Shown: positions 11,195 to 34,251 of the stretch, piece by piece
Numbering within the stretch: the stretch's first letter is position 1
How the letters are laid out: every line of letters starts with the position of its first letter
UHGV virus genome: UHGV-1375844
Direction: 5' to 3' (one strand)
Source of the DNA: a virus
DNA: 64,000 nucleotides
The notes under the pieces: generated by a model
What the model was told of the DNA's origin: nothing
Database searches by the model: none
What the model saw: the letters and a program-made list of their open reading frames with translations, nothing else
Program-made: the position numbers and the translations under genes

Positions 11195-11352
11195 GATCAT
11201 CATTAACCCCCTGCAACTTATCAGTAATATCAATGATGCGATAAATGCGCCCTCTTCTCTGCATGATGCCCTCTTTCACGTAATCATTGAGACAACTACT
11301 CATCACCATGCTGCCGATAACAATCCCCAACCCCAAAAAAGCAATCATCCAG
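11187..11352 (-). CDS. Small membrane protein (~55 aa), not in ORF track
   Basis: Own translation: MMLGWMIAFLGLGIVIGSMVMSSCLNDYVKEGIMQRRGRIYRIIDITDKLQGVNDDHA; AGGAG RBS upstream; directly downstream of the ligase. Confidence 0.35.
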
Positions 11353-11359
11353 CCAAGCA

Positions 11360-19986: not shown

Positions 19987-20736
19987 TTATTTAGTGTATA
20001 GGCCGACAGGTGCTCTTGAGCAACGAGAGATGATTAGAACAATGAACTTCTGTACATTGACCTGAACTTTGTTAGGCAGCCATGAACTGAGTTCGGGATC
20101 GAGCAGTAACCCACGATTCCAAGGTAAAAAACCCGTGTTCTTGCCCATGCCGTATTCACCCAGCACGTCCTCGAACGTTTCTGTTTTGGCATTGTATATA
20201 CGCACATCGCCGGTACGCATGAGAGGGCCAGCCCAGATCTTAGCGCCAGGAATGGTTTGTTTATCGTCGCAGACTAAATGCTCGTACCAATGAAGAAGGA
20301 AAAGATAGGTACGGTGACACAATCCTCGCTGACGAAGCGCTCTGACGGTTTCGACCCCTGCTACCTGGTAACAGTCAATCTCGTTGCCGTCTTCAATAAA
20401 ACTATATCCACGCAGAGCTATCCTGCCGGCGATCGTGTTTTTGCTTTCGTCCAGCAGTCCGGACTGGAGCGCCTCTTTGATGATCTCTTCTTCAGGGGCA
20501 TCTTCATCAGCTCGATCTAAGATAAATTCACTCAGGTCGCCCTGGTCGTGCGCGCCGACTCGCTCCATAGAGACATACAGGCAAATGTCATCTTCTGGCT
20601 CGATGATTTCAATTTCTGAGATTTTATAGAGGGAGGCTTCGTTGATGAGAAAGCCAAAACGAGCAACACGAGTCTCCCCTTGATGAGGAAACTCGCTTAG
20701 ATCTTTTGAATATGCGGTATCTAGTGTAGGAGCCAT
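19987..20736 (-). CDS. Hypothetical protein (249 aa)
   Basis: ORF track; acidic; no motif recognised. Confidence 0.45.
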   Translation of the reverse strand: MAPTLDTAYSKDLSEFPHQGETRVARFGFLINEASLYKISEIEIIEPEDDICLYVSMERVGAHDQGDLSEFILDRADEDAPEEEIIKEALQSGLLDESKNTIAGRIALRGYSFIEDGNEIDCYQVAGVETVRALRQRGLCHRTYLFLLHWYEHLVCDDKQTIPGAKIWAGPLMRTGDVRIYNAKTETFEDVLGEYGMGKNTGFLPWNRGLLLDPELSSWLPNKVQVNVQKFIVLIISRCSRAPVGLYTK

Positions 20737-21104
20737 CTTGTAGCAGAGTCATCAGCCTTAACCGTACTGACAATGCTACCATGATTACGTAAGAAGCGGC
20801 GAATAGAATGTTCAATAACCTCCGAAAAAGCCTCGATAAAACGAGACAGCTCAGGGTACTGTTTGGCTGGCTTCACTACAAAACGAACACGACCATTCAG
20901 GTAAATTGCTTCAGCCAACGGTTTCACGCTTGCACCGGCGCGCTCGACATCGTCTTTAAAGGTAACGATGAAGCGTGAGTCTTCAGGTTCAATAGCGTCG
21001 TTATTGAGCTTACGTACTTCGAGCTTGTGCTGATGCAGCACATGAGTCTCGATAATACTCGTGCAATCGCGAATAGTTTGTATAGAACGTTTCTCGTTCA
21101 GCAT
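20721..21104 (-). CDS. Hypothetical protein (127 aa)
   Basis: ORF track. Confidence 0.45.
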   Translation of the reverse strand: MLNEKRSIQTIRDCTSIIETHVLHQHKLEVRKLNNDAIEPEDSRFIVTFKDDVERAGASVKPLAEAIYLNGRVRFVVKPAKQYPELSRFIEAFSEVIEHSIRRFLRNHGSIVSTVKADDSATRWLLH

Positions 21105-21346: not shown

Positions 21347-21574
21347 TCAGCTCCGGTGCTCCCACTTACACAACCTTTCACCTATCGTATTGTGGATAAG
21401 CAGCTGTCGCTCTGTTTCCTCGGTCATAAAATCCTCTCTACTCACATAGATAGGATTTGCGGCATCGCAGAATTGTACGCCCAAGGTCTGGGGTTTAATC
21501 ACGCATCCACTTATCGCGAAGCTCGCGATGAATGGCAGAAGCATCCTTAGCCCTGACTTCATTAATCGTTTCAT
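21347..21574 (-). CDS. Rz1-like o-spanin lipoprotein
   Basis: Signal peptide + lipobox (LLPFIASFAISGC); 75 aa; 80 nt of its 5' end overlap the 3' end of the Rz-like gene in another frame. Confidence 0.5.
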   Translation of the reverse strand: MKRLMKSGLRMLLPFIASFAISGCVIKPQTLGVQFCDAANPIYVSREDFMTEETERQLLIHNTIGERLCKWEHRS

Positions 21575-21746
21575 TTTTCACATCCACTGTGTTCTGAAGC
21601 CGTTTCCTGTCGTCTTGCCGCGCCTTTTCTTCCATTGCTTGCCGCGCCGCACGACCACCCATCGTATAGGCGCCTGCAAGCACTAAAAGAACGGCAGCCG
21701 CGGTAATCAGAGCAATCTTTAGCTTCGAAAATAGGCTGCCGAACAT
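21495..21746 (-). CDS. Rz-like i-spanin
   Basis: Internal ATG at 21746 with AAAGGA RBS (MFGSLFSKLKIALITAAAVLLVLAGA...); N-terminal TM helix then charged coiled-coil; the longer ORF-track frame (to 21944) overlaps the upstream gene and is taken as spurious. Confidence 0.5.
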   Translation of the reverse strand: MFGSLFSKLKIALITAAAVLLVLAGAYTMGGRAARQAMEEKARQDDRKRLQNTVDVKNETINEVRAKDASAIHRELRDKWMRD

Positions 21747-21747
21747 A

Positions 21748-22440
21748 TCAGACGATTCCTTTCTGATGCTTTCTGACCTGCGACCAGGCAATGAAGCCGG
21801 CCACGACGATAGTTGCGATCCCGAAGACGATGCGGATCGTGTCACCGCTGGTAATGTGGCCCTGTGCCTTGTCCATTGCCACCGATACCTGTGGCATGAC
21901 ATCGGCCAGCTGCGCCAGGCCAATACCTGCCGTAACGGTCGCACCGGCAGTCTCTTTGGTAACGGGAACAGCTTTTACAGTCTTTACCGGTTTGACAATG
22001 CCGGCACGTCGCAGACCTTCTTCGATAAGCTCGGATGCATACCAGGTATTTGGTGTTTTCAGCGGACCTCGACCATTTTCGTGTCTGATGATCGCCTCTA
22101 CCAGCGGTCTTAGGGTCTCGTAGTCATGTAAATCGATCACCATGTCCGGCGTGACACCAACAGCTTTGGCCACCTCATTCACGTAAGCCACAGTGTTGTT
22201 CTCATGTGGAGGCGCCCAGCGCTCAATAACTTCGCGGATCGTGTCGATGCTTGAGCCGTCTTTGGCTCGACGTTTGTCATGGTAGGTGATGAGCGTAACT
22301 GCCAATGCGCGAATCCCCCATACGGGATCTTTGAAAGTGCAGAAGCGCGGTTCTGAAGGGTTGTCGACTAAGCCCTGCCACGGCGAACCTTTATCAAGAT
22401 TGCCAGGGTTGTTGTTGCGAATACCTCTTGGAGTTTTCAT
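21748..22440 (-). CDS. Putative endolysin / peptidoglycan hydrolase-like protein with C-terminal TM helix
   Basis: Position between holin candidate and Rz/Rz1; N-terminal RGIRNNNPGNL motif that I associate with phage lysozyme-like proteins (recall only); C-terminal hydrophobic helix IVFGIATIVVAGFIAW. Confidence 0.4.
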   Translation of the reverse strand: MKTPRGIRNNNPGNLDKGSPWQGLVDNPSEPRFCTFKDPVWGIRALAVTLITYHDKRRAKDGSSIDTIREVIERWAPPHENNTVAYVNEVAKAVGVTPDMVIDLHDYETLRPLVEAIIRHENGRGPLKTPNTWYASELIEEGLRRAGIVKPVKTVKAVPVTKETAGATVTAGIGLAQLADVMPQVSVAMDKAQGHITSGDTIRIVFGIATIVVAGFIAWSQVRKHQKGIV

Positions 22441-22451
22441 CCTTGATCTCC

Positions 22452-22787
22452 TTATTGCAGTCCATTTTTAACGCCGTAAGCGGCCAGCCCCAACAGCAGT
22501 ACGGTAATCAGGAACGACGTAATCTTTGAGACAATGCCGCCAAAAAACCCGCTGGAGATGGAGTCGAGCCGATTAAGAAGTTTGTCCAGATTTGAATGCT
22601 GGATGCTGTGTTGTGCCGGGGTCATATCGCCAAAGTAGGTCTTGAGCTGATCGTTAACTTCCTGACCAATCTCCTCGCGCAGTTCTTTGCCCAATTTGCC
22701 GACTACCTCGCGGGCAACAATCGCGGCAATGCGCTCTACCTGCTCTGGCGTTACGCCTGCCATCTCGTTCGACATTATTTCCTCCAT
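22452..22787 (-). CDS. Putative holin (position-based), C-terminally anchored membrane protein
   Basis: 111 aa; single C-terminal TM (ITSFLITVLLLGLAAYGV); first gene of the lysis cassette. Confidence 0.35.
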   Translation of the reverse strand: MEEIMSNEMAGVTPEQVERIAAIVAREVVGKLGKELREEIGQEVNDQLKTYFGDMTPAQHSIQHSNLDKLLNRLDSISSGFFGGIVSKITSFLITVLLLGLAAYGVKNGLQ

Positions 22788-22838
22788 GAAAAGTCAAATC
22801 GGGATGGCAGGGTTATAACACATTAGCAAACAATTTTG

Positions 22839-22857
22839 TAGGTAAGCACTTACTTAT
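22839..22857. repeat. Intergenic palindrome family, copy
   Basis: taggtaagcacttacttat. Confidence 0.6.
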
Positions 22858-22865
22858 TAATGCAT

Positions 22866-23690
22866 TTAAACACGGGTGCCATGAATTGTGCCAACCGTCA
22901 CCCACGTTGGGGCATTACCATTAACAGCAGCGCCACCAGCCCCACCTGCATACGGGGTGATATTCTTCCCCCCTCCAGACTGCGAAGCAGCTGCACCAGC
23001 GGAACCCAAGTCACCACCTTTCCCGCCAACAGATGTTCCAAGGCTTGTGGAGGTATTCCCTGCACCTGGAGCCGTAAGCGAAGCATTGCTGCCGTTGCCA
23101 CCGCCGCCGCTGGGGTAGGTTTTTGTACCACCGACGCCAAATGGTCGCCCGCCGCCGCCGCCTGAATAAGTTGGTTTATTATTACCAGCCCCAACAGCGC
23201 CGCCGCCTCCACCACCGCCTCCAATAATGCCGTTATTTTGGATGCGCAGTTTGCTTCCGATGGCATTGGTGATCGCAGGACCGCCCGGCTTACCTTTGTT
23301 GGCATCGCCGTTTCCTCCACCGCCGCCATTTCCCCCACGGCCAAGCACCATTTGTCCCGAGTTAATCACAAGCAAGATATAAGCGCAGCTGGCAAGCTCG
23401 CTTGTAAAATTGAGACAGGGCGCACTGGCAGAACTCGACACAATGGTACCGGTGATGTTGACTCTGATGGCGTTGTCCTTCACGCCTAAAGACTTAATCT
23501 GATTGACTAGAGTAGACCAGGAATAGTTGTTGTTCGCTGAAACATTGATGACCTGCTCTCTGGACTTGCCTACCAGGGTTTTCATCCAGAAAGGGGCGCC
23601 AACCCGTACAGATCTGCCGGCAGCTGACATCCATCGTTGCCCAGTCTCACTTACTGCGGAGGAGCCAACCCATCCGGAGTTGATGGTCAT
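22866..23690 (-). CDS. Tail fibre / receptor-binding protein 2, glycine-rich C-terminal domain
   Basis: Start re-placed at ATG 23690 (MTINSGWVGSSAVSETGQRWMSAAG...); N-terminal ~40 aa paralogous to 25124..25681; long poly-Gly runs (GGGGGGGG). Confidence 0.6.
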   Translation of the reverse strand: MTINSGWVGSSAVSETGQRWMSAAGRSVRVGAPFWMKTLVGKSREQVINVSANNNYSWSTLVNQIKSLGVKDNAIRVNITGTIVSSSASAPCLNFTSELASCAYILLVINSGQMVLGRGGNGGGGGNGDANKGKPGGPAITNAIGSKLRIQNNGIIGGGGGGGGAVGAGNNKPTYSGGGGGRPFGVGGTKTYPSGGGGNGSNASLTAPGAGNTSTSLGTSVGGKGGDLGSAGAAASQSGGGKNITPYAGGAGGAAVNGNAPTWVTVGTIHGTRV

Positions 23691-23694
23691 TTTC

Positions 23695-23840
23695 TCATCT
23701 CCTTGAGTTCCATAACCTCTTTTTCGACGCTTTAACAGCTTCGACCATAATCCCAATGATACCGTTACATTTCAGACGAAGGCGTTCTTCTCCTGAATGG
23801 TCGTTTTTATCGGCTGTAACCAGCTCTGGTTGCAACTTTT
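23695..23840 (-). pseudogene. Remnant of a tail-fibre C-terminal intramolecular-chaperone domain
   Basis: Start-less frame KLQPELVTADKNDHSGEERLRLKCNGIIGIMVEAVKASKKRLWNSRR aligns with the C-terminus of the L-shaped fibre (KVQPELVTVDKNDQSGEERLRLNYNGVIGLLVEAVKELRDEI); DNA homology to 25681-25840. Confidence 0.6.
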
Positions 23841-23941
23841 ACATCTCGGGCGGTCAAGCTACCCGCCATCTTGCCCGACATCATTTCCTTAATGAAAGTC
23901 AGTTCAGATGGCAGGTAATACTATACTTTTTTTACCGGTCT

Positions 23942-23961
23942 ATAGGTAAGCACTTACCTAT
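23942..23961. repeat. Intergenic palindrome family, copy
   Basis: ataggtaagcacttacctat. Confidence 0.6.
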
Positions 23962-23975
23962 ATAACAAGCTAATT

Positions 23976-24221
23976 TTAGGATTTTGGGCAGTTGATGGAG
24001 GTGAACGCCCCTTGCCCCACCCAACGCCAGTTAAAAATACTCCCGGCCCGATAAAGCGTATACTTACCTTCTTTCTTGATCGCATAAATTGGCACACTCG
24101 TTGACGAACCGCCAACCATTGCCTTCCCATAGCAAACAGGCTCTGGTAATTTTTGACAGGCGCTCAATGTAAGTGTTACGCCTAGTAATAAAACTAATTT
24201 CTTCATTTTATATTCCATCAT
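23976..24221 (-). CDS. Small lipoprotein (candidate Cor/Llp-like superinfection-exclusion protein)
   Basis: Signal peptide with lipobox (MKKLVLLLGVTLTLSAC); ~60-aa mature part; sits inside the receptor-binding gene cluster. Confidence 0.5.
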   Translation of the reverse strand: MMEYKMKKLVLLLGVTLTLSACQKLPEPVCYGKAMVGGSSTSVPIYAIKKEGKYTLYRAGSIFNWRWVGQGAFTSINCPKS

Positions 24222-24826
24222 CCGTAGAGATTTCTGTTTAAGACTGGAACTCGGTTGTTGATAGCAAGGCTCGCCCCTCCATTAATTTCATTAACAAGGA
24301 TAGAACTCACGGTATTTCCGTAGCATGTGTAGCCGTAAACCAGCGTCTTAGCGCCACCCGGCATTGGAATAGCAAAGGCGTTAGCGTAAGTTGGCACAAC
24401 CGCTACCGGATAATTGAATACGTGCTTATCATTACTGTTCCAGCTATTATTATCAAGAAATGTGAAAGACAGTGGGATATTTGCCGTGTTATAGATCTCA
24501 ACCCCTGAAGAATTGAAAAAACTCATTCCCCATTTTTCTTTTCTGGTTATGCCCGTAGCGAAAACATACACAGTTACGTTTGAATCACTCCCACGTCCAC
24601 CGAAGCTGTAAATAACCTGGTTATTGCGAACTATACGATTCGCAAGCAGTGAAACAGCTTTTGTATACGCCACGAAGACCATAGGGGACCGATCAGGAGA
24701 TAGTCCCGTATTGAACTCGCTCCCCCCTTTCAGTGAGACAACATGTTTGCTCTGGAAAACCAGAGGCGTAAGGCTTGGAGACATCCAGACCTTTCCATCA
24801 GATCGAACGATTTTGCTTCCGTACAT
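24218..24826 (-). CDS. Hypothetical protein (202 aa), tail-fibre locus
   Basis: ORF track; start overlaps the upstream stop (TAATG). Confidence 0.45.
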   Translation of the reverse strand: MYGSKIVRSDGKVWMSPSLTPLVFQSKHVVSLKGGSEFNTGLSPDRSPMVFVAYTKAVSLLANRIVRNNQVIYSFGGRGSDSNVTVYVFATGITRKEKWGMSFFNSSGVEIYNTANIPLSFTFLDNNSWNSNDKHVFNYPVAVVPTYANAFAIPMPGGAKTLVYGYTCYGNTVSSILVNEINGGASLAINNRVPVLNRNLYG

Positions 24827-25080
24827 TATTTCTGAAACACCATTAGGTAGATGGTTCCGTATGCATTTGTCCAGTTAATCTGGTTTCCTGAAATGGTTAC
24901 ACTGCCAATGTTGCCATTCAGTGTTTCCATAATGTAGTAATCAAGAGACATCCCCGACTCGACAGCATACCTTCTGCTGCCGCTACCGGTTGGCTGAAAA
25001 TAATCCAGATAATAAATTGGCGCTAAGGCGTCGACCATTTCCTGTCTGCTCGGCGACCAAATTTTTGCTCCATAACTCAT
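24826..25080 (-). CDS. Hypothetical protein (84 aa), tail-fibre locus
   Basis: ORF track. Confidence 0.4.
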   Translation of the reverse strand: MSYGAKIWSPSRQEMVDALAPIYYLDYFQPTGSGSRRYAVESGMSLDYYIMETLNGNIGSVTISGNQINWTNAYGTIYLMVFQK

Positions 25081-25123
25081 ATATCATCCTTGATTATGTA
25101 AGGCGCTTGTGGGCGCCTTCTAA

Positions 25124-25681
25124 TTAAATTTTAGTTACGGCAATCGTTTTGCCATTTTGATTGTAAAGCCAGCCTCCTGCTGTACTCGCTCTATAATGCC
25201 TGGTGTTATATGCAAAGTGGCTCGGAGTGAAGGTAAAATTAGTTCCACCAAAAGAAAGCGTGAAATTTTGGTTCGGCCCATTAGTTAAACCTATATACAT
25301 GGTTGTCGCATTTTGAACCTGGGAAACATGCGTAATAGCACACCCCAATAATGTTCCACTAACAGAGCCTGTTGCGTTAATCGAGAGCGGTTGTTGCGCA
25401 CCGCTTACGACTGTTGCAGCAATGGCTCCTGTTTGAACGGAGTTATTTGAAAAACCACCATACGAGGATGTCCCTTGAATGAATTGACCGTTCGAAATCT
25501 GCGCTCTGAAAGCGTATGTGTTCCGGCCAACCACCACCGTGAAGTCCTGCATCGCTTTTCCAACCAGAGAACTCATCCAAAACGGAGTGCCAACCTTAAC
25601 TTTGGAGCCAGCGGCAGACATCCACCGCTGGCCAGTAGTTGATACGGCTGACGACCCGACCCATCCTGAGCCAATCGCCAT
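25124..25681 (-). CDS. Tail fibre / receptor-binding protein 1
   Basis: N-terminus MAIGSGWVGSSAVSTTGQRWMSAAG... paralogous to 22866..23690; start overlaps the stop of the L-shaped fibre (TAATG). Confidence 0.6.
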   Translation of the reverse strand: MAIGSGWVGSSAVSTTGQRWMSAAGSKVKVGTPFWMSSLVGKAMQDFTVVVGRNTYAFRAQISNGQFIQGTSSYGGFSNNSVQTGAIAATVVSGAQQPLSINATGSVSGTLLGCAITHVSQVQNATTMYIGLTNGPNQNFTLSFGGTNFTFTPSHFAYNTRHYRASTAGGWLYNQNGKTIAVTKI

Positions 25682-28600
25682 TATCTGTTCTCCTTGATTT
25701 CACGGATTTCGTCACGCAGCTCTTTCACCGCTTCGACCAGCAGTCCAATGACGCCGTTATAGTTCAGACGCAGACGCTCTTCCCCGGATTGGTCATTTTT
25801 ATCAACCGTTACCAGTTCTGGCTGTACCTTCTGAACATCCTGAGCGATCAGGCCACCAGACTGCTCGTATCGATCATGTACCTGAATCTCATACAGAACC
25901 CCTTCAATCTGCCCCAGCTTGTCGAGTGCGCTCTCGATTTTGCGGATATTCCGCTTACTTCTACGGTCAGAACGGATATATACGTCGTTGAAGCTACCAT
26001 TACCGCCACATACCCAAGTGCCATCGTTTTGCAGATATGCCTGGGCATCCGTACCGTTGGCCGTCCGTGAGTTGTTGATCATGTAAAAACCAAACTGGCT
26101 GTTACCCAGACCGCCGACGAAAAACTTACGATCGGCATGATCTTGTCTCAACAACGCTTGGGCCGAGCTGGTTGACACGGCATTCCGTCCAAAAATAACG
26201 TTCTGATCACGCATGTTAATCCACGAGCCAGAGCCGCTATTGATGGCGAAGCGACCTGCGTAGACCCACGCACTTGAAGTAATGTCTCCTGACACAGAAA
26301 GGGGCTTATTGCTTTGCAACGTCCCGTTGACGAATCGGAACACATGAGCGCTATTGGCGTAGACATCCAGTACGCCATCCCCATTTTGCTTAAACCCGGT
26401 ATCGTTATCTCCCAGAACAATAGAGTTCCCACCTAATCCATTCGTTACGCCTAAACCGAGGCTGCCGGCAATAGTTGCGCCACCAGCGATATCAAGGCCG
26501 TTAGCCATCGACGCACGACCAGAAGTGTTGTTAATGGTCAGCGGTCGAAGGCCGTTCCATCCACCAAACTTGTCGCCTGATGCCGTTAAAAGGAAATAGG
26601 TGCTGCTGCCATCGTTTCGGATGAAGAAGCCAAAGTTACCGTAAGCAGCTCGCAGAGCATTGGCGCTTAATGAGGTGATCTCATTTCTTGCACGAACACC
26701 ATATCCAGTGTTGATAATGAGTTCCTCTTGCGCGTCAGTATTCCCTGTCGCCCAACGGATAGTTCCACCCTGAACCGTCTCGTGCCAGATTGTGTCGCTA
26801 CTTCCCCCGCGGTATTTGCGGAGATATTTCTTACCCCCTGTCGTGCCTCCACATAAAGCGGTGGCCATGTACGTGCCCTGGGCGCCGCCATCCTGATTAA
26901 TGGTTCCGGTAACTGCTCCACCGCCTGTAGGGAGTGCCCCAACCTCAGCGGCGCTCGGTTTGTTAGCCGTGGTGTAGATCTGCGCCCAACCAGACCAATT
27001 GGCGTCAGTGGTATCACGACGAGAGCGGATGTAAGCTGGGGCATGGCCACCGCTGGTGCCACTCCAGCCGAGTAACAACTCGCCTTCGCCTGCAGCAGAC
27101 CCTCCTTTAAAATGAAGAACGTTGCCGTAAGTTGTTGGATAGCCGTTGTTGTAGGCTTCATACATCTGGATACCCGGCATGGCCCCCTGCGTACTTCCGG
27201 CCAGCGCGGTAACGCGACCGCGAGATACCAGAGTAGGGATGCTGATATTCGCGGTACCATCAAAAGCGACATTGTTGATCGATCTTGCCGTCTGCAATTT
27301 GCTCGCTGAGACCGCATTAGCACCTGAAGCAAGAGCGCCAATATCGGCAGGCGTTGGCTTATTACGGGTGTTATATAAGCGACGCCAGCCTGGTCCATAG
27401 CCGTCACCATTATTTACGTAAATAAACTCGGCGTTAGTTACCCCACCATGACCTGTCGTCGTTGGTGTGGTAATGCGGATCGTGTAGTTACCTGAGTTTC
27501 CATTGCTGAAAACTTCAATAACTGAACCAGAGAGATCAATCCTGCCGCATCCAGTGTCGTCAATGTAGTTATTGCTGGCGTAAGACCATGAGCAACGCGC
27601 GATCCAACATTTATACCCAAAAGCACCTTGTTCATTAAGCCAGGTAACAAACTGAGCTGTGGTAAAGGCCGCACCACTGCCACTATTCAGCCAACCACTA
27701 ACTGCTGCCGCAGCATTGATGTTTGCCGGGCTAATGTTAATGTCAGAAGAACCGTCGAAGTTTACACCTGCGATTTTACGTGCGGTTTGTAGCTTAGTTG
27801 CAGTCGCTGCGTTGCCTGTCGTGCTTTGATTTCCCTGGGTGTTAACACCAGGCAAGTTGATATCGGCGGAACCGTCAAAATTCACCCCACCAATTTTTCG
27901 GGGCGTCCTGAGCTTGCTGGCCGTACCCGCATTCCCTGATGTTGACTGGTTCCCCTCGGCATTCACACCCGGAAGATTGATGTCCTGGCTGCCATCGAAC
28001 AGCACCCCACCAATACGACGTCCCGTCTGGAGTACCGTCGCAGTACTCGCATTGCCCACCAGTGAGCCTGTAATAGCACCATTGATGTCTGAAAGTACTC
28101 GATGATATACCGTTCCCTCTACGGCGCCTTCAGGCAACGAGTCAACCGATTCGATCACTTCCAGCGATTCAACCGCGGCGCCGGAGAATTGCAGGTTCAC
28201 AATTAACTTTTGAGCGCCCGCGCCCACGCGAAGGTAGATGTCGTAATTTTCTTCGTCGGTATTAACGGTGGCCACGCTATTTACAGCGGAGTCCTGCGTT
28301 AAATAGGCAACAGCATTGAGACCTTTGGGATCGCCCCCCGCTGTGCGAAGAACAATGTCAGCCATCGCAGCCTGGCCTGGGCTATCGGTATCATAGCCAG
28401 CGCCACCGATCACTTCGATGTAGACAGTGCTGGTCGCTTGCGGCATACGCGCACGCGAGACTTTTACCCACTTGGGCGTATCAGAGGTCAAGTCCAGTTC
28501 GGCGGACGTACCTTTCCATTTCACGCTGGCGATACTGGACTGCGCATTCTGCGCATATTCGTATGCCTTGTCCTCAGACGCTTTCGCTTTCGTCTGGGAT

Positions 28601-29880
28601 GCTTTGGCCTCAGCTGCCGAAGTCGAGGCCTCGGACGCTTTTGCTGTCGCGAGTGTGGCCGACTCAGCGGCTTCTGTTGCCTTTGCTTCAATACCTGCCA
28701 GCGCGTCAGTTGCGGTGGTCGCAGATGCGGCTGCGCTTGCCTCAGACTTCTTCGCTTCGCCAGCACTTGATGCAGCTGCATCTTTGCTGGCCTCTGCCGC
28801 ATCAGCATATTCGCCAGCTGTAGTGGCGCTCCCCGCCGCCGCGTCAGCGCTTAAACCGGCAGCCACTTTACTCGCGGCGGCGGCTGTTTCCGAGGCGGCA
28901 GCGTTGGTTTCAGACACTTTAGCCGCGGCAGCGCTGGCGGCCGACCCGTCGGCGCTCTGCGCCGCGTTTGTTTCAGATGTTTTGGCTGCGTTCTGAGATG
29001 CAAGTGCGGCAGCTGCACTACCCGCTGCTGCGTTTTCCGATGCGGCGGCATTGCTCTCAGAAACTTCAGCAGCCGCAGCGGAATTAGATGCTGCGGTCGC
29101 AGAATCCGCAGCAGAGACAGCGCTGCCAGCAGCGTTAGTTTCTGAGGCTTTCGCGGCATTTTTGGACGCTGCGGCACTCGAAGCAGATGCCCCTGCTTCG
29201 GCGGCTTTCTCCGTTGCGGTGGCAGCTGAAGCTACAGCAGTCTCTTTATAGCTTTCTGCATTCGTTTCGGAGGTCTTTGCACCCTTAGCGGCTTCGCTGG
29301 CAACGCTTTCGGATGCAGCAGCTGCGGCAGCACTTTTACTGGCCTCAGTCGCCTTTGTTCCGGCAGTGCTTGCGCTATTGGCAGCTGCTGCTGCGCTGGC
29401 GGCTGCCTGTTTAGCTTTGTCACCCGCGGCATCGATTGCATCCGTATTGTCTCTGTACCATTGCTGGTTGGCATTGTGCTCATTGACGATTTGGGTGAGC
29501 GATTTGACTGTCACCTCAGTGCCGTCCTCGCGTTCGAGTGTCACTTCATCAATGGCAGTTAACCAGCTTCGCATTGTCTTCGAGTCGGCTGACATTCGAG
29601 TCATCAATGCCGTGAAGCGAGCACTGAACTGTGTCAGATCGCCTTCATAGGTAGTGATGATGCGGCATGGGACATCATTCTGGGTCTCACCCGAGTACTG
29701 CTCCATAAGTGTCAGGCGGGTGTCATTTAGCACACGCTTAATTTCGTACAGCTTGTTATCGGGGCCGATGACAATCATGCCCGGCAACACGCCATTGGCA
29801 GTGACGTTCCAAAACGTGCCAGTGCCCTCAAGCGTGTCACTTCCCTGTGTAAATGTGATAGTACCTTCCCTGTACCACAT
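25681..29880 (-). CDS. L-shaped tail fibre-like protein with C-terminal intramolecular chaperone (peptidase S74-like)
   Basis: 1399 aa; ~290-aa Ala/Ser-rich low-complexity repeat region; C-terminus ...IRSDRRSKRNIRKIESALDKLGQIEGVLYEI... resembles the self-cleaving chaperone domain of T5 pb1 and endosialidases. Confidence 0.75.
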   Translation of the reverse strand: MWYREGTITFTQGSDTLEGTGTFWNVTANGVLPGMIVIGPDNKLYEIKRVLNDTRLTLMEQYSGETQNDVPCRIITTYEGDLTQFSARFTALMTRMSADSKTMRSWLTAIDEVTLEREDGTEVTVKSLTQIVNEHNANQQWYRDNTDAIDAAGDKAKQAAASAAAAANSASTAGTKATEASKSAAAAAASESVASEAAKGAKTSETNAESYKETAVASAATATEKAAEAGASASSAAASKNAAKASETNAAGSAVSAADSATAASNSAAAAEVSESNAAASENAAAGSAAAALASQNAAKTSETNAAQSADGSAASAAAAKVSETNAAASETAAAASKVAAGLSADAAAGSATTAGEYADAAEASKDAAASSAGEAKKSEASAAASATTATDALAGIEAKATEAAESATLATAKASEASTSAAEAKASQTKAKASEDKAYEYAQNAQSSIASVKWKGTSAELDLTSDTPKWVKVSRARMPQATSTVYIEVIGGAGYDTDSPGQAAMADIVLRTAGGDPKGLNAVAYLTQDSAVNSVATVNTDEENYDIYLRVGAGAQKLIVNLQFSGAAVESLEVIESVDSLPEGAVEGTVYHRVLSDINGAITGSLVGNASTATVLQTGRRIGGVLFDGSQDINLPGVNAEGNQSTSGNAGTASKLRTPRKIGGVNFDGSADINLPGVNTQGNQSTTGNAATATKLQTARKIAGVNFDGSSDINISPANINAAAAVSGWLNSGSGAAFTTAQFVTWLNEQGAFGYKCWIARCSWSYASNNYIDDTGCGRIDLSGSVIEVFSNGNSGNYTIRITTPTTTGHGGVTNAEFIYVNNGDGYGPGWRRLYNTRNKPTPADIGALASGANAVSASKLQTARSINNVAFDGTANISIPTLVSRGRVTALAGSTQGAMPGIQMYEAYNNGYPTTYGNVLHFKGGSAAGEGELLLGWSGTSGGHAPAYIRSRRDTTDANWSGWAQIYTTANKPSAAEVGALPTGGGAVTGTINQDGGAQGTYMATALCGGTTGGKKYLRKYRGGSSDTIWHETVQGGTIRWATGNTDAQEELIINTGYGVRARNEITSLSANALRAAYGNFGFFIRNDGSSTYFLLTASGDKFGGWNGLRPLTINNTSGRASMANGLDIAGGATIAGSLGLGVTNGLGGNSIVLGDNDTGFKQNGDGVLDVYANSAHVFRFVNGTLQSNKPLSVSGDITSSAWVYAGRFAINSGSGSWINMRDQNVIFGRNAVSTSSAQALLRQDHADRKFFVGGLGNSQFGFYMINNSRTANGTDAQAYLQNDGTWVCGGNGSFNDVYIRSDRRSKRNIRKIESALDKLGQIEGVLYEIQVHDRYEQSGGLIAQDVQKVQPELVTVDKNDQSGEERLRLNYNGVIGLLVEAVKELRDEIREIKENR
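28560..29430. repeat. Low-complexity Ala-rich repeat-coding DNA within the L-shaped fibre gene
   Basis: Reiterated A-S-E-T-N-A-A-like units; produces spurious long ORFs on the opposite strand. Confidence 0.6.
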
Positions 29881-29967: not shown

Positions 29968-32900
29968 TCAAAGCAAGCCAATGCGCACCCGGAGAACATT
30001 GTTGTCATCATAAACATCAATGCGCTGACCATTAATGACCAAACGACCGTTGCCACCGCTGTTGCCGTTAATCTCCAGAACTCCGTTTTTGCCAAACCGC
30101 CACCCAGAGCGCCCGGAAACAAAATTCGTAGACTGGAGATCGCCCACTTTGGCATTGGTAATCGTGCCATCCTTGATATAGGCGCCATTCATGTAAGCAA
30201 TGCTGTTTTCAACCACGAACGGCGTTGTAACCTTCCCGTTCACTGAGTTCACCAATCCAAAACGGTCGGCTTGAACAAGGAATTGAGACAGGCCAGTGCT
30301 GTCGATCCCCAGCGCGATGCCGGCAACATACTTCTGCCCGCCGCTGGTGGATGTCTCCATCTTAAGTGTCCAAGCTGTAGAGACCTTTTTATTGGTATCT
30401 GCAATAGCTGTCGCCTGTTGCCTAATCGTTGCAGAGTTACCGTCAACAGAGGCTTTTAGCGTGTCGATACGTGACCCCAACGCCCCATCAGCATTAGCCC
30501 TGGCGTTCGCCTCGGACGTAATCGCTGCATTAATGTCCTTGCCAGTCTGGGCTTTCAGGCTTGTGATCTGCCCGGCCAGCGCCGAATCGGCATCAGTACG
30601 AGCTTTAGTCTCAGTAGCAACCGCTGCTTTGATGTCCTGTGCAGTCTGGGCCTTTAACGTGCTGATCTGGGTTGCCAGTGCGCTATCCGCGTCAGTACGC
30701 GCTTTCGTTTCACTGGCAACTGCCGCCTTAATATCCTCCCCCGTCTGAGCCTTGAGGCTGGTAATTTGTTTGGATAATGCCTCATCCCCTGAAGCTCGTG
30801 CGGTCTGCTCTTCCGTAAGAGCCGCACTAATGTCACCTTCTACCTTCGCCTGCAGTGACGTAATCTGCCTGGAAAGCGATTCATCCGCAGTCGCTCGGGC
30901 CTCCTGCTCAGAAACAATGGCCGCAGAAATATCATCATTGATCTGGGCTTCCAGCTTGGTGATTTGTGTTGCGATCGCCTTATCAGCTTCAACACGAGCT
31001 GTCGTCTCTTCGGTAATAGATGCCCGGATGTCCTCACCAATCTCTGCGCGGATCTCTTCCACTTTGGAGGCCATCGCAGACATATCGTCAGCAAAGGTCT
31101 TTTGAGTGGTGGCGATCTTCGCATTATTGACCATCTGCTTATGCTGGTCTTCGTCCTGTCGCAGTGCGAGGTCGATGTTGGTTTTGGCCAATGCCTCGAT
31201 ATTAGTCGTCACTTCCGCGCTGGCACGTTCGACTTCGGCAACGGTCTTTTTCATCTCTTCGACAGCGGCTACGCTATCATCGACAGAAGACTTAATCGCC
31301 TCGATCTGTTTGGCGTTCGCCTTGTCACCCTCTACTCTGGCCTCTCGCTCTTCAGCAATTAAGGCAGATGAATTGTCCAGGGCCGCTTGAGCCGCTTCAA
31401 CCGCGCCGGCCACTGCTTTGCCCTGTTCAGACACAGTCTCCTGCAATTCAACCAGGGCGGCGTTTGAGTCTTCGACTTGACTCAGCGCCTCGTTAACCTT
31501 ATCGAGCGTGCCAGACACCTCTGTTTTCAGGTCATTCTGGGCCTGCTCAAGTCTGTCGCTGGTCTCTGACAGCTTCCCGTCCAGATCGGAAACAGACTGG
31601 TCGAGTTCTTTGAGGCTTTCCTCCATCTGCTTATTGATAGCGTCAACGGCTTCTTGAGAGGCTTTGGTGTCAATTTCCTCCAACAGTTCCTGCCCCAGCT
31701 CAGAAGACGTGATCTTACCTGTCAGGAAAGAAAGCACGTCTTTCGTCATAGCCTCTGTACCCAGATTAGAGTTAGGCGGACTTAACATGCCTCGTTTATT
31801 GGCTGCACGTACCCAATAGAACCAGGTCTCGCTATCCCCTAAACCCGCATGGGTAAAGGTCGTGCTGGCCGACTCAGCGATCAGCTTGGCTGTGTCCAGA
31901 TTGTTAGTCTGGGATGCATATACGTTGATATGGTCGAGGTCGATTGAGTCTGGGTTTACCCAATTCAAAATCACATTTCGGTAGTCGCCAACGGCCGTCA
32001 AAGCAGTCGGGGCGTCAGGCGGAGTCATCGTTCCCTGCACTTTGTATACGGTGCTGATAATCTCCGTCTTCTTACCGCTAAACGACACTGCGTACAGCTG
32101 GATGTCGTACTGCCCGTTTTCAGCAATATTGATGATCTCATATTGCTCTTCCGTTACGCGTGCCGACTGCCAGTTAGAAACGTTGTTAGCATCAGAACGT
32201 CGCCAGCTGATCCAGTATTCAGCAGATTTACCTTCCCACGTAGCAATGAGCTTGATTGAAAGGTTGCCCGGGCTGGAAATATACGTCCCTTCCGTAACCT
32301 GCAAATTTGTCGGCTTCGAGAAAGTCGGGTCAAGAACAGTATTGTTTTCCGGAATCAACGTCGCCCCGTTGTCGATGGCTTCGTATTTCGATGGGTTGTT
32401 CTGGACAACCGTAACATCGAAAGATCCCTGGGCATCACCTTGCGCAACGTTAATAACACGCACACGCATTGGCTCCAGATCTGGCTCGGTGATAGTCCAG
32501 ACGCCGTTCAACACAGGCATATCGCCTGACGACAGCGATTTTGAGAAGGTAACTTTGGTAAGGTTCTCACCGGTCTCAAGAATGTCTCTCTCGACGATTT
32601 TACCTTCCTGATTCATGACACGGATGTAGCTGCCGCCTTTCTTCAGCGTTACCGGCGCATCGAGCGTGATGCTGTTCTTGTTGAACGCCATAATGCGCCC
32701 GGAATTGCGTTTGCCGGCGCGATATTTGTTCTGAATCAGAACAGTCTCGCCAGGCATTAAGAAAGAGGCATCCAGACCTGCAGTAAAGGTGATTACGTCA
32801 GATTCCATGCGAGCGGTATACAGGAGCCACAGCCCGACTCGATGCGCCTGGCCACGACTGGTGCAGCCAAACGCCACGACTTCAGTTTTGCGCTCGCCAT

Positions 32901-34251
32901 AGCGACGCATCGCCTCCTGGTCTTCAACGTATTCGATGTTCTGCTTATAGCCATCTTCCTTGTTGTTGTAGGTTACAAGTGCAACGGAAGGACGGTCTTT
33001 GCGAGCAGATCCTTTGTAGCTGAATAAACCATCTTTGACGTTGGCATTAGTGAACATCATTACCGGATCAGATGGGCTATCCTGCATGACATTAACCATA
33101 CCACCAGCCCAGAAAACCATACCGCGGAACGCTCCAGCGATGTCCTGAATCAGTCGGTAAGCGTCCTGTCGGCTCGTGATCTGAGTGTTGATAGCGAAGC
33201 GTTTTTCTTTACCGCCGAAACCATCGTCGATCTCTTCATCGCAATAGCGGCCAATTTGGTAGAGCTGCCCCAGGTCGATCATGGATTCGGAAACGAACTG
33301 CCCGAGGCCGTAACGTGCGTTTGTCAGTACGTCGAAAAGAATCCACGCCGGGTTCGAAGATGACAACAGCTTAAAGGTGCCATCCCAGATGCCTTCATAG
33401 GTGTTAGTTTTTTCGTTGTAGTTTGACGGCACACGAATTTTTAAACCGCGAACCAGATACGAACGAGAAGGCATAGAACTACCAAACTGCTCGGAGTTAA
33501 CCTTAAGCCCCACCAGAGCGGAGTTCGGGTAGTTCATTGGCGTATCAACGATCTCACCGATCGAGTCAACCCAGGTGTCGTTATACAGATACTGAGTTTT
33601 ACTGTCGTCAGTAAGCCGGATGACGCGAACCTTATATGCCCGGCCAGGTTTCGGCAGCTTCAGCTCATAGCTGCGGTAGTAAACGCCTGTTTTCTTCGCT
33701 GTCAGCGCGATCTCAACGTTTTTCTCTCCTTCGGCAACCACGTCAGAGAATGTTCCGTCGCCGTTGGCGATCTGAAACTTGTACTGGACGGTCGTACCAT
33801 TGGTATCCCCGGATTTTTTATCCACGCTACGCAATGAAGGAAACTTGAGGATGACGCGAACGCGATCGGCTTCGTCGTTGTCGATGGAGACCGTAACGTC
33901 ATGCGTTTTTTTCAACTGAATGTTGATGGACTTCGGCGTCTCGACGAAATCAAAACCGGCCATAGGCGTCTGGTCTTGCGAGCCATCGCGAAAATCCCAT
34001 GTAATGCCGCTGTAGTTTGCAGAGCCGTCTTCGTTGAGGATCGGCAGATCGTCGATAAAAATCGACTTCGCGCCATCTACCAAGCCACCAATAACACCTT
34101 CCCCGAGCAGATCGAGGATGGATGCCATAGCACGCGAGTTAACGGTATCATCCGCTTCAACCGGTGTGCGGCTTGAGCCACTGCTTTTCTTACCGCCTGC
34201 ACCTGCGATCAGGAGAGGAAGTCTTTTCTTCTTGAACTGTTCCATGTTCAA
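29968..34251 (-). CDS. Central tail fibre / host-specificity protein, lambda J-like
   Basis: 1427 aa; follows the I-like gene in lambda order; C-terminal tandem ~32-aa coiled repeats. Confidence 0.75.
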   Translation of the reverse strand: MNMEQFKKKRLPLLIAGAGGKKSSGSSRTPVEADDTVNSRAMASILDLLGEGVIGGLVDGAKSIFIDDLPILNEDGSANYSGITWDFRDGSQDQTPMAGFDFVETPKSINIQLKKTHDVTVSIDNDEADRVRVILKFPSLRSVDKKSGDTNGTTVQYKFQIANGDGTFSDVVAEGEKNVEIALTAKKTGVYYRSYELKLPKPGRAYKVRVIRLTDDSKTQYLYNDTWVDSIGEIVDTPMNYPNSALVGLKVNSEQFGSSMPSRSYLVRGLKIRVPSNYNEKTNTYEGIWDGTFKLLSSSNPAWILFDVLTNARYGLGQFVSESMIDLGQLYQIGRYCDEEIDDGFGGKEKRFAINTQITSRQDAYRLIQDIAGAFRGMVFWAGGMVNVMQDSPSDPVMMFTNANVKDGLFSYKGSARKDRPSVALVTYNNKEDGYKQNIEYVEDQEAMRRYGERKTEVVAFGCTSRGQAHRVGLWLLYTARMESDVITFTAGLDASFLMPGETVLIQNKYRAGKRNSGRIMAFNKNSITLDAPVTLKKGGSYIRVMNQEGKIVERDILETGENLTKVTFSKSLSSGDMPVLNGVWTITEPDLEPMRVRVINVAQGDAQGSFDVTVVQNNPSKYEAIDNGATLIPENNTVLDPTFSKPTNLQVTEGTYISSPGNLSIKLIATWEGKSAEYWISWRRSDANNVSNWQSARVTEEQYEIINIAENGQYDIQLYAVSFSGKKTEIISTVYKVQGTMTPPDAPTALTAVGDYRNVILNWVNPDSIDLDHINVYASQTNNLDTAKLIAESASTTFTHAGLGDSETWFYWVRAANKRGMLSPPNSNLGTEAMTKDVLSFLTGKITSSELGQELLEEIDTKASQEAVDAINKQMEESLKELDQSVSDLDGKLSETSDRLEQAQNDLKTEVSGTLDKVNEALSQVEDSNAALVELQETVSEQGKAVAGAVEAAQAALDNSSALIAEEREARVEGDKANAKQIEAIKSSVDDSVAAVEEMKKTVAEVERASAEVTTNIEALAKTNIDLALRQDEDQHKQMVNNAKIATTQKTFADDMSAMASKVEEIRAEIGEDIRASITEETTARVEADKAIATQITKLEAQINDDISAAIVSEQEARATADESLSRQITSLQAKVEGDISAALTEEQTARASGDEALSKQITSLKAQTGEDIKAAVASETKARTDADSALATQISTLKAQTAQDIKAAVATETKARTDADSALAGQITSLKAQTGKDINAAITSEANARANADGALGSRIDTLKASVDGNSATIRQQATAIADTNKKVSTAWTLKMETSTSGGQKYVAGIALGIDSTGLSQFLVQADRFGLVNSVNGKVTTPFVVENSIAYMNGAYIKDGTITNAKVGDLQSTNFVSGRSGWRFGKNGVLEINGNSGGNGRLVINGQRIDVYDDNNVLRVRIGLL
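30260..31000. repeat. Tandem ~96-bp coding repeats in the J-like gene
   Basis: Protein units of type ITSLKAQTGEDIKAAVASETKARTDADSALATQ repeated at least 4 times. Confidence 0.6.

What the first reader, a model, noticed from the sequence alone, without database searches (positions are those of the whole stretch)
23976..25080. Lipoprotein and two unknown genes embedded between receptor-binding genes (Cor/Llp-type exclusion candidate)
A small lipoprotein with a clear lipobox lies between the two receptor-binding genes, together with two coupled unknown genes (202 and 84 aa). In T5 (llp) and T1/phi80-like phages (cor), a lipoprotein encoded next to the receptor-binding gene inactivates the phage receptor to prevent superinfection and progeny loss. 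By that paradigm this lipoprotein is a candidate receptor-masking protein; the other two genes are unassigned.
Basis: partly seen in the sequence, partly recalled or inferred. Interest (0 to 1): 0.55.

Follow-up and report, generated by a model that had tools for sequence, protein, structure and literature searches.

The report
Cor exclusion lipoprotein with receptor-binding genes
The small lipoprotein belongs to the known Cor family, which phages use to switch off their own outer-membrane receptor, and the two "unknown" genes beside it are its usual partners, probably the receptor-binding tip of the central tail fibre, so this is an ordinary instance of a known three-gene cassette.

Summary
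The window is an SSU5-like phage-plasmid of Salmonella enterica. The three minus-strand ORFs are real, translationally coupled and under strong purifying selection.

The 81-aa lipoprotein is a Cor protein:
- It scores 83.6 bits against the NCBIfam equivalog "phage exclusion lipoprotein Cor" (cut-off 31).
- It is 41-45% identical over its full length to N15, phi80 and ES18 Cor.
- Its confident AF2 model has T5 Llp, bound to FhuA, as its best PDB match.

The 84- and 202-aa genes are homologues of N15/phi80/T1 gp22 and gp23, which precede cor in those phages.
- Neither has a signal peptide or membrane helix, so their database labels ("outer membrane", "membrane associated") are unsupported.
- In 52 related elements the pair occurs only where the J-like tail-tip protein has the short T1/N15-type end.

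Best reading: a tip receptor-binding module plus its cognate Cor. The target is probably FhuA or another TonB-dependent transporter; this is inferred, not shown. The cassette is already described and SSU5's own copy is annotated Cor-like, so novelty is low.

The parts
23976..24221 (-). cor: phage exclusion lipoprotein Cor. It is 81 aa from the coupled ATG, or 76 aa from the ATG at 24206. The lipobox is LSAC with Cys22, and the mature protein is 60 aa with conserved Cys30 and Cys78.
24218..24826 (-). p202: an N15 gp23-like protein (PHROG 425). It is a candidate receptor-binding protein of the central tail tip and has no signal peptide or membrane helix.
24826..25080 (-). p84: an N15 gp22-like small protein (PHROG 557). 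It is a candidate adaptor between the J tip and p202 and has no signal peptide.
   Evidence: PHROG 557 gives E 4e-23. Hydropathy is. dN/dS is 0.10. An Ig-like fold is reported for relatives in PMC12309495 but was not tested here.
25100..25119 (-). Intergenic stem-loop (AAGGCGC-CCACAA-GCGCCTT) between the 185-aa adhesin gene and p84. It has no U-run, and an AAGGA ribosome-binding site for p84 follows it.
   Evidence: Read directly from the sequence. The terminator scan did not call it.
29968..30216 (-). Short C-terminal tip (last 82 aa, ending ...VLRVRIGLL) of the 1427-aa J-like central tail-fibre protein (29968-34251). This is the inferred docking site for p84 and p202.
   Evidence: It is homologous to the very end of N15 gp21 and T1 gp33. 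In related elements the gp22/gp23-like pair occurs only with this short tip and never with extended tips. J of the Enterobacter plasmid L006 is 96% identical up to about residue 1390, where the alignment ends and the two C-termini diverge. It is 135 aa longer, and the cassette is absent there.
25124..25681 (-). Context: a 185-aa lateral-fibre adhesin with a Gp38_N attachment domain. It is the homologue of SSU5 gp22, reported to bind the LPS core.
   Evidence: PF21721 gives E 1.4e-20 and PHROG 1121 gives E 1.3e-49. The LPS-core statement is taken from PMC12312913, which cites Kim et al. 2014.
22866..23690 (-). Context: a second, full-length T2-type Gp38 adhesin (274 aa from the ATG at 23690). 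It is absent from SSU5.
   Evidence: PF05268 gives E 1.5e-49. Window 21362-23856 is 91% identical in DNA to the Enterobacter plasmid L006. RefSeq calls the gene at the same start.
23695..23900 (-). Context: a frameshifted remnant of the 3' end of a lateral-fibre gene (the end of the S74 chaperone domain). It marks the recombination junction between the SSU5-like and L006-like segments.
   Evidence: Three-frame translation compared with the end of the 1399-aa fibre. The homology breakpoint lies at 23856/23862.

Best explanation
The three genes are the conserved gp22-gp23-cor cassette of FhuA-dependent siphophages (N15, phi80, HK022, T1, ES18), here carried by an SSU5-like phage-plasmid.

**Shown**
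- The lipoprotein is a Cor-family protein with a lipoprotein signal peptide and an outer-membrane sorting signal, and its predicted fold matches T5 Llp.
- p84 and p202 are soluble proteins with no signal peptide or membrane helix (p202 is modelled as β-rich), homologous to gp22 and gp23.
- All three genes are coupled and lie in the late tail-to-lysis gene block.

**Inferred**
- p84 and p202 are virion proteins that dock on the short C-terminal tip of the J-like central fibre.
- p202 is the protein that binds the terminal outer-membrane receptor, and p84 is an adaptor.
[quoted passage not shown] There it binds the periplasmic face of the same receptor and changes its surface loops so that p202 can no longer bind. 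Llp does this to FhuA and Rtp45 does it to LptD.
- This blocks superinfection and stops progeny being wasted on infected cells and debris.
- The receptor is most probably FhuA, because all characterised carriers of close Cor homologues use FhuA. Another TonB-dependent transporter is not excluded.

The flanking Gp38-type adhesins belong to a different device, the lateral fibre.
For: **Cor membership**
- The NCBIfam equivalog NF047972 scores 83.6 bits against a cut-off of 31. PHROG 1119 gives E 7e-30.
- Full-length global identity is 45% to N15 Cor, 42% to phi80, 41% to ES18 and 32% to T1. Local tblastn gives 45.5% to HK022 Cor.
- The lipobox Cys, Cys30, Cys78, Gly37, Gly60 and Phe73 are invariant.

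**Cassette identity**
- J is followed by a ~100-aa gene, a ~225-aa gene and then cor in N15, phi80, T1 and ES18.
- PMC13164509 describes the same locus in T1, HK022, N15, ES18 and phi80, all FhuA-dependent.

**p84/p202 as tail-tip receptor-binding proteins rather than membrane proteins**
- They have no signal peptide or membrane helix.
- In T1 and ES18, cor lies on the opposite strand to J-gp22-gp23. The pair therefore belongs to the J transcription unit and cor does not.
- 933W has the pair next to its tail-tip fibre without any cor.
- Among 52 SSU5-like loci with a complete J-to-holin interval, the pair occurs in 18 of 30 with the short T1/N15-like J tip and in 0 of 22 with extended J tips (Fisher p = 3e-6, loci not independent).
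- The Enterobacter plasmid L006 has a J that is 96% identical up to about residue 1390, where the alignment ends and the two C-termini diverge. Its end is 135 aa longer, and it has no cassette.
- In the 18 loci with a complete J-to-holin interval the pair always comes with a Cor-family lipoprotein. There are two divergent alleles with different gene orders and positions.
- Allele variants track host genus.
- The literature treats the locus downstream of gpJ as the RBP locus with a cognate exclusion protein (PMC8594841; bioRxiv 10.64898/2026.04.02.716166; PMC12309495).

**Mechanism paradigms are solved structures**
- FhuA-Llp and LptDE-Rtp45 (PMC12685063).
Against: - No experiment shows that gp22- or gp23-type proteins are in virions or bind FhuA. 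The only virion evidence is a tentative SDS-PAGE band for a distant relative.
- Twelve of the 30 short-tip loci have no cassette within 10 kb, so the short J tip does not require it.
- In this element the cassette lies about 5 kb from J, behind the lateral-fibre and adhesin genes.
- In Stx2 phage 86 the closest Cor (59%) directly follows a homologue of the 185-aa adhesin, without p84/p202 between them.
- p202 is only 21-23% identical to the gp23 proteins of FhuA-dependent phages and is slightly closer to those of 933W and a Warwickvirus, whose receptors are not FhuA. The receptor therefore cannot be read from p202.
- The sources I could read cite Kim et al. 2014 only for the LPS core as SSU5's receptor; that paper itself was not held.
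- No promoter-like site above chance was found for lysogenic expression of cor.
Confidence: 0.62

Rival explanations
1. The mechanism is the same, but the receptor masked by Cor and bound by p202 is not FhuA. It could be BtuB, another TonB-dependent transporter, or BamA as for 933W-type phages.
For: - p202 is closer to the gp23-like proteins of 933W and Warwickvirus JLBYU10 (27%) than to those of N15, phi80 or T1 (21-23%).
- PMC13164509 notes Cor-like proteins in BtuB-dependent phages.
- No outer-membrane protein receptor is reported for SSU5 in the papers I could read.
Against: - Cor itself passes the lambdoid Cor equivalog with a wide margin.
- It is 41-45% identical over its full length to the Cor proteins of N15, phi80 and ES18, which are FhuA-dependent. 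It is only 22-25% identical to the lipoproteins of allele B and JLBYU10.
Confidence: 0.22
2. p84 and p202 are not virion receptor-binding proteins. They are accessory proteins of the exclusion system, acting with Cor at the envelope, as assumed in PMC13164509 from their database labels.
For: - Tight coupling of p202 to cor in this window.
- Constant co-occurrence of the three genes in SSU5-like loci.
- The authors' assumption.
Against: - Neither protein has a signal peptide, lipobox or membrane helix, so there is no evident route to the envelope.
- In T1 and ES18 the pair is co-oriented with J and convergent with cor.
- 933W has the pair without cor, and Stx2 phage 86 has cor apart from the pair.
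- The best fold match of p202 is a solved phage RBP.
- The pair is absent whenever J carries its own extended C-terminal domain.
Confidence: 0.08
3. p84 and p202 serve the lateral fibre rather than J, as assembly chaperones or adaptors for the fibre or its Gp38-type adhesin. Cor travels with that adhesin module.
For: - In this element and in SSU5 the cassette follows the lateral fibre and adhesin genes, not J.
- In Stx2 phage 86 a fibre end (62% identical), an adhesin (58%) and cor (59%) form one block.
Against: - In N15, phi80, T1, ES18 and SSU5-like allele B the pair sits directly after J and before, or without, the lateral-fibre gene.
- Many loci have the same class of lateral fibre and Gp38-type adhesin without the pair (L008, L019, L057, L068).
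- A periplasm-facing lipoprotein could not mask the LPS core, which is the reported ligand of the SSU5 adhesin.
Confidence: 0.08

Closest known systems
Cor (phage exclusion lipoprotein) of N15, phi80, HK022, mEp167, ES18 and T1
   Same: - Same family by curated model.
- 32-45% full-length identity.
- Same size.
- Same lipobox and two conserved cysteines.
- Same position after the gp22- and gp23-like genes in the tail module.
   Different: - Here cor overlaps the upstream gene (ATGA). N15 and phi80 have a ~110-nt gap, and T1 and ES18 have cor on the opposite strand.
- The cassette lies ~5 kb from J, behind the lateral-fibre genes.
- The host is Salmonella or Enterobacter and the element is a phage-plasmid.
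- Exclusion and the FhuA target are untested.
Llp of phage T5 (PDB 8A60, FhuA-Llp complex)
   Same: - Small outer-membrane lipoprotein of about 60 mature residues.
- Encoded beside the receptor-binding gene.
- The proposed action, binding the periplasmic face of the receptor and allosterically closing the phage-binding site, is taken from this system.
   Different: - No significant sequence similarity (E 0.67, mostly signal peptide).
- The partner RBP in T5 is pb5, which is unrelated to p202.
- llp has its own promoter in T5 (from my own knowledge).
N15 gp22/gp23, phi80 gp22/gp23, T1 and ES18 homologues (PHROG 557 and 425)
   Same: - Full-length homology.
- Conserved N-terminal motif M-x-YG-x-x-I...G...P and C-terminal ...IN...YD.
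- Same gene order and coupling.
   Different: - Only 21-31% identity.
- p84 and p202 are shorter: 84 against ~100 aa, and 202 against ~225 aa.
- They are not adjacent to J here.
RBP-plus-exclusion-lipoprotein loci of small siphophages (Oekolampad RBP and Rtp44/Rtp45, receptor LptD; PDB 9RPT, 9RPS)
   Same: - Locus logic is the same: a small lipoprotein next to a receptor-binding protein that works with a J-like fibre lacking its own binding domain.
   Different: - No detectable sequence relationship.
- Foldseek does not find the match.
- A single ~310-aa RBP replaces the gp22/gp23 pair.
- The receptor and the lipoprotein family differ.

Membership tests
Cor (phage exclusion lipoprotein; NCBIfam NF047972, PHROG 1119) | Sequence match above the curated family cut-off | tested here: met
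   83.6 bits against a cut-off of 31, model positions 1-77 of 78. PHROG 1119 gives E 7e-30.
Cor (phage exclusion lipoprotein; NCBIfam NF047972, PHROG 1119) | Lipoprotein signal peptide with a lipobox cysteine and no inner-membrane retention signal | tested here: met
   MKK n-region, hydrophobic core, LSAC with Cys22, Gln at +2. Pfam LPAM_1 scores 19.7 bits, just under its cut-off of 20.
Cor (phage exclusion lipoprotein; NCBIfam NF047972, PHROG 1119) | Two conserved cysteines and the conserved glycine/aromatic core in the ~60-aa mature part | tested here: met
   Cys30, Cys78, Gly37, Gly60 and Phe73 are invariant across the window, SSU5, two other SSU5-like alleles, N15, phi80, T1 and ES18.
Cor (phage exclusion lipoprotein; NCBIfam NF047972, PHROG 1119) | Encoded in the tail module directly after gp22- and gp23-like genes | tested here: met
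   the locus is described in PMC13164509.
Cor (phage exclusion lipoprotein; NCBIfam NF047972, PHROG 1119) | Excludes FhuA-dependent phages and inactivates FhuA functions | not testable with these tools
   Needs expression in a host followed by adsorption, plating and ferrichrome or albomycin assays.
Llp (T5 lytic conversion lipoprotein) | Sequence similarity to Llp | tested here: not met
   A Cor-family profile against PDB sequences gives 8a60_B at E 0.67, aligned mainly over the signal peptide.
Llp (T5 lytic conversion lipoprotein) | Llp fold | tested here: met
Llp (T5 lytic conversion lipoprotein) | Binds the periplasmic face of the phage's own receptor and prevents RBP binding | not testable with these tools
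   No complex prediction or binding assay is available here.
N15 gp23-like (PHROG 425, labelled 'membrane associated protein') | Full-length sequence homology | tested here: met
   E 2e-48 over residues 1-202. Alignments with N15, phi80, T1, ES18, 933W, JLBYU10 and Zar3M.
N15 gp23-like (PHROG 425, labelled 'membrane associated protein') | Membrane association, as the label implies | tested here: not met
   No signal peptide. The maximum 19-residue Kyte-Doolittle mean is 1.19. The AF2 model is an all-beta soluble fold. The label, not the family membership, is what fails.
N15 gp22-like (PHROG 557, labelled 'outer membrane protein') | Sequence homology, and an outer-membrane location as the label implies | tested here: inconclusive
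   Homology is met (E 4e-23; alignment). There is no signal peptide and the maximum hydropathy is 0.36, so an outer-membrane location is unsupported. The Ig-like fold claimed in PMC12309495 was not modelled here.
Tail-tip receptor-binding proteins of small siphophages (Oekolampad RBP / Rtp44 class) | Sequence relationship to a proven RBP | tested here: not met
   hhalign of the gp23 family against Rtp44 gives a probability of 0.4%. The profile against PDB sequences finds nothing.
Tail-tip receptor-binding proteins of small siphophages (Oekolampad RBP / Rtp44 class) | Shared fold with a proven RBP | tested here: inconclusive
Tail-tip receptor-binding proteins of small siphophages (Oekolampad RBP / Rtp44 class) | Encoded with a cognate exclusion lipoprotein and used with a J-like fibre that lacks its own receptor-binding domain | tested here: met
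   Adjacent cor. The short J tip is homologous to those of N15 and T1. The pair is never found with extended J tips: 0 of 22 against 18 of 30.
Tail-tip receptor-binding proteins of small siphophages (Oekolampad RBP / Rtp44 class) | Present in virions and binds the terminal receptor | not testable with these tools
   Needs virion proteomics, pull-down or cryo-EM.

The most novel reading that the evidence does not exclude
The element carries three separate host-recognition devices and protects only one of them.
- A central-fibre tip made of p84 and p202 binds an outer-membrane transporter and is masked by Cor.
- One lateral fibre can be capped by either of two adhesins that share the same Gp38_N attachment domain: a 185-aa LPS-core binder, and a 274-aa T2-type Gp38 acquired by recombination.

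A single lysate would then contain virions of two lateral-fibre specificities.

Separately, the gp23-like proteins and the LptD-binding RBPs of Dhillonvirus and Rtp-like phages, so far called unrelated, would share one ancestral fold that docks on the T1/N15-type J tip.
Probability: 0.2. Interest if true: 0.5.

Novelty: new member of a known kind. Interest (0 to 1): 0.3.

Why it matters
SSU5-like phage-plasmids are common in clinical Enterobacteriaceae. About 800 PLSDB plasmids match this region, and 254 carry a p202 homologue.

If their Cor is active it could make carriers resistant to FhuA-dependent therapeutic phages (T1-, T5- and phi80-like). It could also alter uptake of ferrichrome, albomycin, colicin M and microcin J25.

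Correcting the labels matters for host-range and receptor prediction from genomes. [quoted passage not shown]

None of this is a new principle. The cassette, its link to FhuA and the RBP-locus idea are already in the literature.

Tried and rejected
- **Cassette switching between the two Gp38_N adhesin genes or fibre ends.** blastn of 22800-24000 against 25100-26400 found no DNA repeat. Rejected. The arrangement is a recombination scar: 91% identity to an Enterobacter plasmid up to 23856, and SSU5-like from 23862.
- **An own promoter for cor, for lysogenic expression.** The scan found 5 promoter-like sites against 4.1 expected by chance. No minus-strand terminator-like site lies between the fibre gene and the holin. 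No conclusion is possible.
- **Solved structures by sequence.** There are no PDB hits for any of the three proteins or for the family profiles.
- **Foldseek of the p202 model against PDB.** Nothing significant.
- **Profile comparisons.** The gp23 and gp22 families against Rtp44, and the Cor family against Rtp45, gave nothing beyond the signal peptide.
- **Are gp22 and gp23 paralogues?** hhalign found only a 13-residue motif at 17% probability.
- **Single-sequence homologue search for p202.** It found only 5 close relatives. A family alignment was needed.
- **Strict J-tip/cassette co-variation.** Rejected as a rule, because 12 short-tip loci lack the cassette.
- **Kim et al. 2014 on the SSU5 receptor.** The paper is not held.
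Full report
**What the window is.** The region is 99.6% identical to plasmid pSA20094620.2 of Salmonella enterica. It is collinear with the phage-plasmid SSU5. All relevant genes are on the minus strand. In transcription order they are:

| Coordinates | Product |
|---|---|
| 29968-34251 | J-like central tail-fibre protein, 1427 aa |
| 25681-29880 | Lateral fibre, 1399 aa (Gp34_trimer and Peptidase_S74 domains) |
| 25124-25681 | 185-aa adhesin with a Gp38_N domain |
| 24826-25080 | p84 |
| 24218-24826 | p202 |
| 23976-24221 | The lipoprotein |
| about 23695-23900 | Frameshifted remnant of a fibre-gene 3' end |
| 22866-23690 | Complete Gp38 adhesin |
| downstream | Holin, endolysin, spanins |

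**Observation.**
- The three ORFs exist at the stated coordinates.
- They are coupled: TAATG between p84 and p202, and ATGA between p202 and the lipoprotein.
- They are real genes. Each matches a PHROG family. Against SSU5, at about 78% DNA identity, dN/dS is 0.10, 0.03 and 0.06.
- The lipoprotein has a textbook signal peptide: MKK, a hydrophobic core, and LSAC with Cys22. Gln at +2 predicts outer-membrane sorting.
- RefSeq and the SSU5 record start p202 at an internal Met, giving 188 aa. The 202-aa form is right. Its first 14 residues carry the family's conserved N-terminal motif, and they differ from SSU5 only at synonymous sites.

**The lipoprotein is Cor.**
- It scores 83.6 bits against NCBI's equivalog model for "phage exclusion lipoprotein Cor", whose cut-off is 31.
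- Full-length global identity is 45% to N15 Cor, 42% to phi80, 41% to ES18 and 32% to T1. Local tblastn gives 45.5% to HK022 Cor.
- The lipobox Cys and two further cysteines are invariant.
- An AF2 model of the mature 60 residues is confident (pLDDT 87).
- This agrees with two recent papers that place Cor and Llp in one structural family.
- SSU5's own GenBank record already calls its homologue "Cor-like".

**The two "unknown" genes are gp22 and gp23 homologues.**
- p84 belongs to PHROG 557 and p202 to PHROG 425.
- They align over their full length with gp22 and gp23 of N15 and phi80 and with their T1 and ES18 counterparts. Those genes sit between J and cor in the same order.
- PMC13164509 describes this three-gene locus in T1, HK022, N15, ES18 and phi80, all FhuA-dependent.
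[quoted passage not shown] Neither protein has a signal peptide or a hydrophobic helix.

**What p84 and p202 most likely do.** Two views exist in the literature.
- They are the receptor-binding proteins encoded downstream of gpJ (PMC8594841; bioRxiv 10.64898/2026.04.02.716166; PMC12309495).
- They help Cor in exclusion (PMC13164509).

My evidence favours the first view:
1. In T1 and ES18 the pair is co-oriented with J, while cor is on the opposite strand.
2. 933W has the pair next to its tail-tip fibre with Lom and no cor.
4. I fetched 80 SSU5-like loci from IMG/VR and classified the C-terminus of J.
   - It is either "short": 82 residues past the query, ending VLRVR[IL]G[LRQ]L. This type is found in the window and is homologous to the very ends of N15 gp21 and T1 gp33.
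   - Or it is "extended" by one of at least six unrelated 194-238-residue domains.
   - Among the 52 loci with a complete J-to-holin interval, the pair is present in 18 of 30 short-tip loci and 0 of 22 extended-tip loci. Fisher p is 3e-6. The loci are not phylogenetically independent.
5. The Enterobacter plasmid L006 is a natural swap. Its J is 96% identical to the window's up to about residue 1390, where the alignment ends and the two C-termini diverge. Its end is 135 aa longer, and the cassette is missing.
6. In the 18 loci with a complete J-to-holin interval the pair always comes with a Cor-family lipoprotein, in two divergent alleles:
   - fibre, ..., p84, p202, cor, as in the window;
   - J, 95-aa lipoprotein, 96 aa, 215 aa, fibre.

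   The second allele's lipoprotein matches PHROG 1119 at E 3e-7.
7. Warwickvirus JLBYU10, Dhillonvirus Zar3M and Rtp have the same logic: an exclusion lipoprotein followed by the RBP gene or genes, convergent to J.
8. In plasmids, the p202 variants track host genus. The variants with at least 90% identity are in Enterobacter and Salmonella, those near 75% are in E. coli, and there are almost none in Klebsiella.

**Cautions.**
- Twelve short-tip loci have no cassette within 10 kb.
- In this element the cassette is about 5 kb from J.
- In Stx2 phage 86 the closest Cor (59%) follows a fibre end (62% identical) and a homologue of the 185-aa adhesin (58%). Its gp22/gp23-like pair lies 3.5 kb away. 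Cor can therefore travel with the adhesin module.
- p202 is only 21-23% identical to the gp23 proteins of FhuA-dependent phages, and is slightly closer to those of 933W and JLBYU10.
- The FhuA assignment therefore rests on Cor alone.
- For SSU5 itself, the papers I could read cite Kim et al. 2014 only for the LPS core as receptor, bound by the homologue of the 185-aa adhesin. The original paper is not held.

**Mechanism I commit to.**
- p84 and p202 are late virion proteins at the tip of J. p202 binds a TonB-dependent outer-membrane transporter, most probably FhuA.
- Cor is made from the same late transcript. No minus-strand terminator-like site lies between the fibre gene and the holin.
- Cor is lipidated and placed in the inner leaflet of the outer membrane. 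It binds the periplasmic face of that transporter and makes it unrecognisable. Llp does this to FhuA and Rtp45 does it to LptD.
- *Shown:* family membership, targeting signals, fold similarity, synteny, co-occurrence and purifying selection.
- *Inferred:* virion location, docking on J, receptor identity, and exclusion itself.

**Origin of the "between two receptor-binding genes" layout.** Window 21362-23856 is 91% identical to the Enterobacter plasmid L006. That stretch covers the lysis genes, the Gp38 gene and the last ~170 nt of that plasmid's fibre gene. Window 23862-25080 is SSU5-like at 78%. An SSU5-type block of fibre end, 185-aa adhesin, p84, p202 and cor was therefore recombined in upstream of an L006-type Gp38 gene. 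This left a frameshifted fibre remnant. The two adhesin regions share no DNA repeat, so this is not a switch.

**Verdict.** The unassigned genes are identified as the known gp22/gp23-type partners. The finding is a new member of a known, already described cassette, and its interest is modest.

Noticed in passing
window 22866-23900 (-): A second, intact T2-type Gp38 adhesin (274 aa, PF05268 E 1.5e-49) lies after cor. A frameshifted remnant of a fibre-gene 3' end precedes it. Its first ~45 residues are about 75% identical by eye to those of the 185-aa adhesin (Gp38_N domain). Both adhesins could therefore cap the same lateral fibre and give two specificities. SSU5 lacks this gene.
   Followed up: partly
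window 25681-29880 and 25124-25681 (-): The lateral fibre ends in a Peptidase_S74 self-cleaving chaperone domain, yet a Gp38_N-type adhesin gene follows it directly (TAATG overlap). I have not seen an intramolecular chaperone combined with a separate tip adhesin discussed. Stx2 phage 86 has the same pairing (L091 2810-5452).
   Followed up: partly
L008-L087, C-terminus of the J homologue (about 10319 to 10567-11035 in most loci): SSU5-like elements carry either a short T1/N15-type J end or one of at least six unrelated 194-238-aa C-terminal domains. The Klebsiella-type loci L075-L087 have only ~1.6 kb between J and the holin. That gap holds one ~480-500-aa gene and no long lateral fibre.
   Followed up: partly
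L009, L012, L013, L015, L020, L022, L026, L027, L067 (about 10590-12000): A second allele of the cassette has a different order and position: J, then a 95-aa Cor-family lipoprotein, then a 96-aa and a 215-aa protein, then the fibre. The J tip in these nine loci always ends RLGQL. Among the loci with a complete J-to-holin interval, this ending is not seen without that allele.
   Followed up: partly
L012 14497-15690, also L027 and L067: A 397-aa multi-pass membrane protein gene sits between the lateral fibre and the holin in some allele-B loci. By eye it resembles the SbmA/BacA peptide-uptake family. It may be a cargo gene.
   Followed up: no
window 24784-24826 and 25036-25080 (-); alignments A1, A2, A4: p84 and p202 begin with the same motif (MSYGAKIW... 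and MYGSKIV...). A similar motif recurs inside p202 (KWGMSFFNSSG) and, weakly, in Rtp44 (GPGINIFNSNN). It could be a shared docking strand or a trace of duplication. The hhalign probabilities are low.
   Followed up: partly
window 24218-24826 (-); SSU5_024; CHE19_RS27095: Public annotations start this gene 14 codons too late, giving 188 aa instead of 202. This removes the family's conserved N-terminus.
   Followed up: yes
L006 1933-3132 (+): The Enterobacter relative carries a HEPN-domain gene between parA and the lysis genes. The window instead has unrelated ORFs in that interval (about 19987-21104). It may be a variable defence or cargo slot.
   Followed up: no
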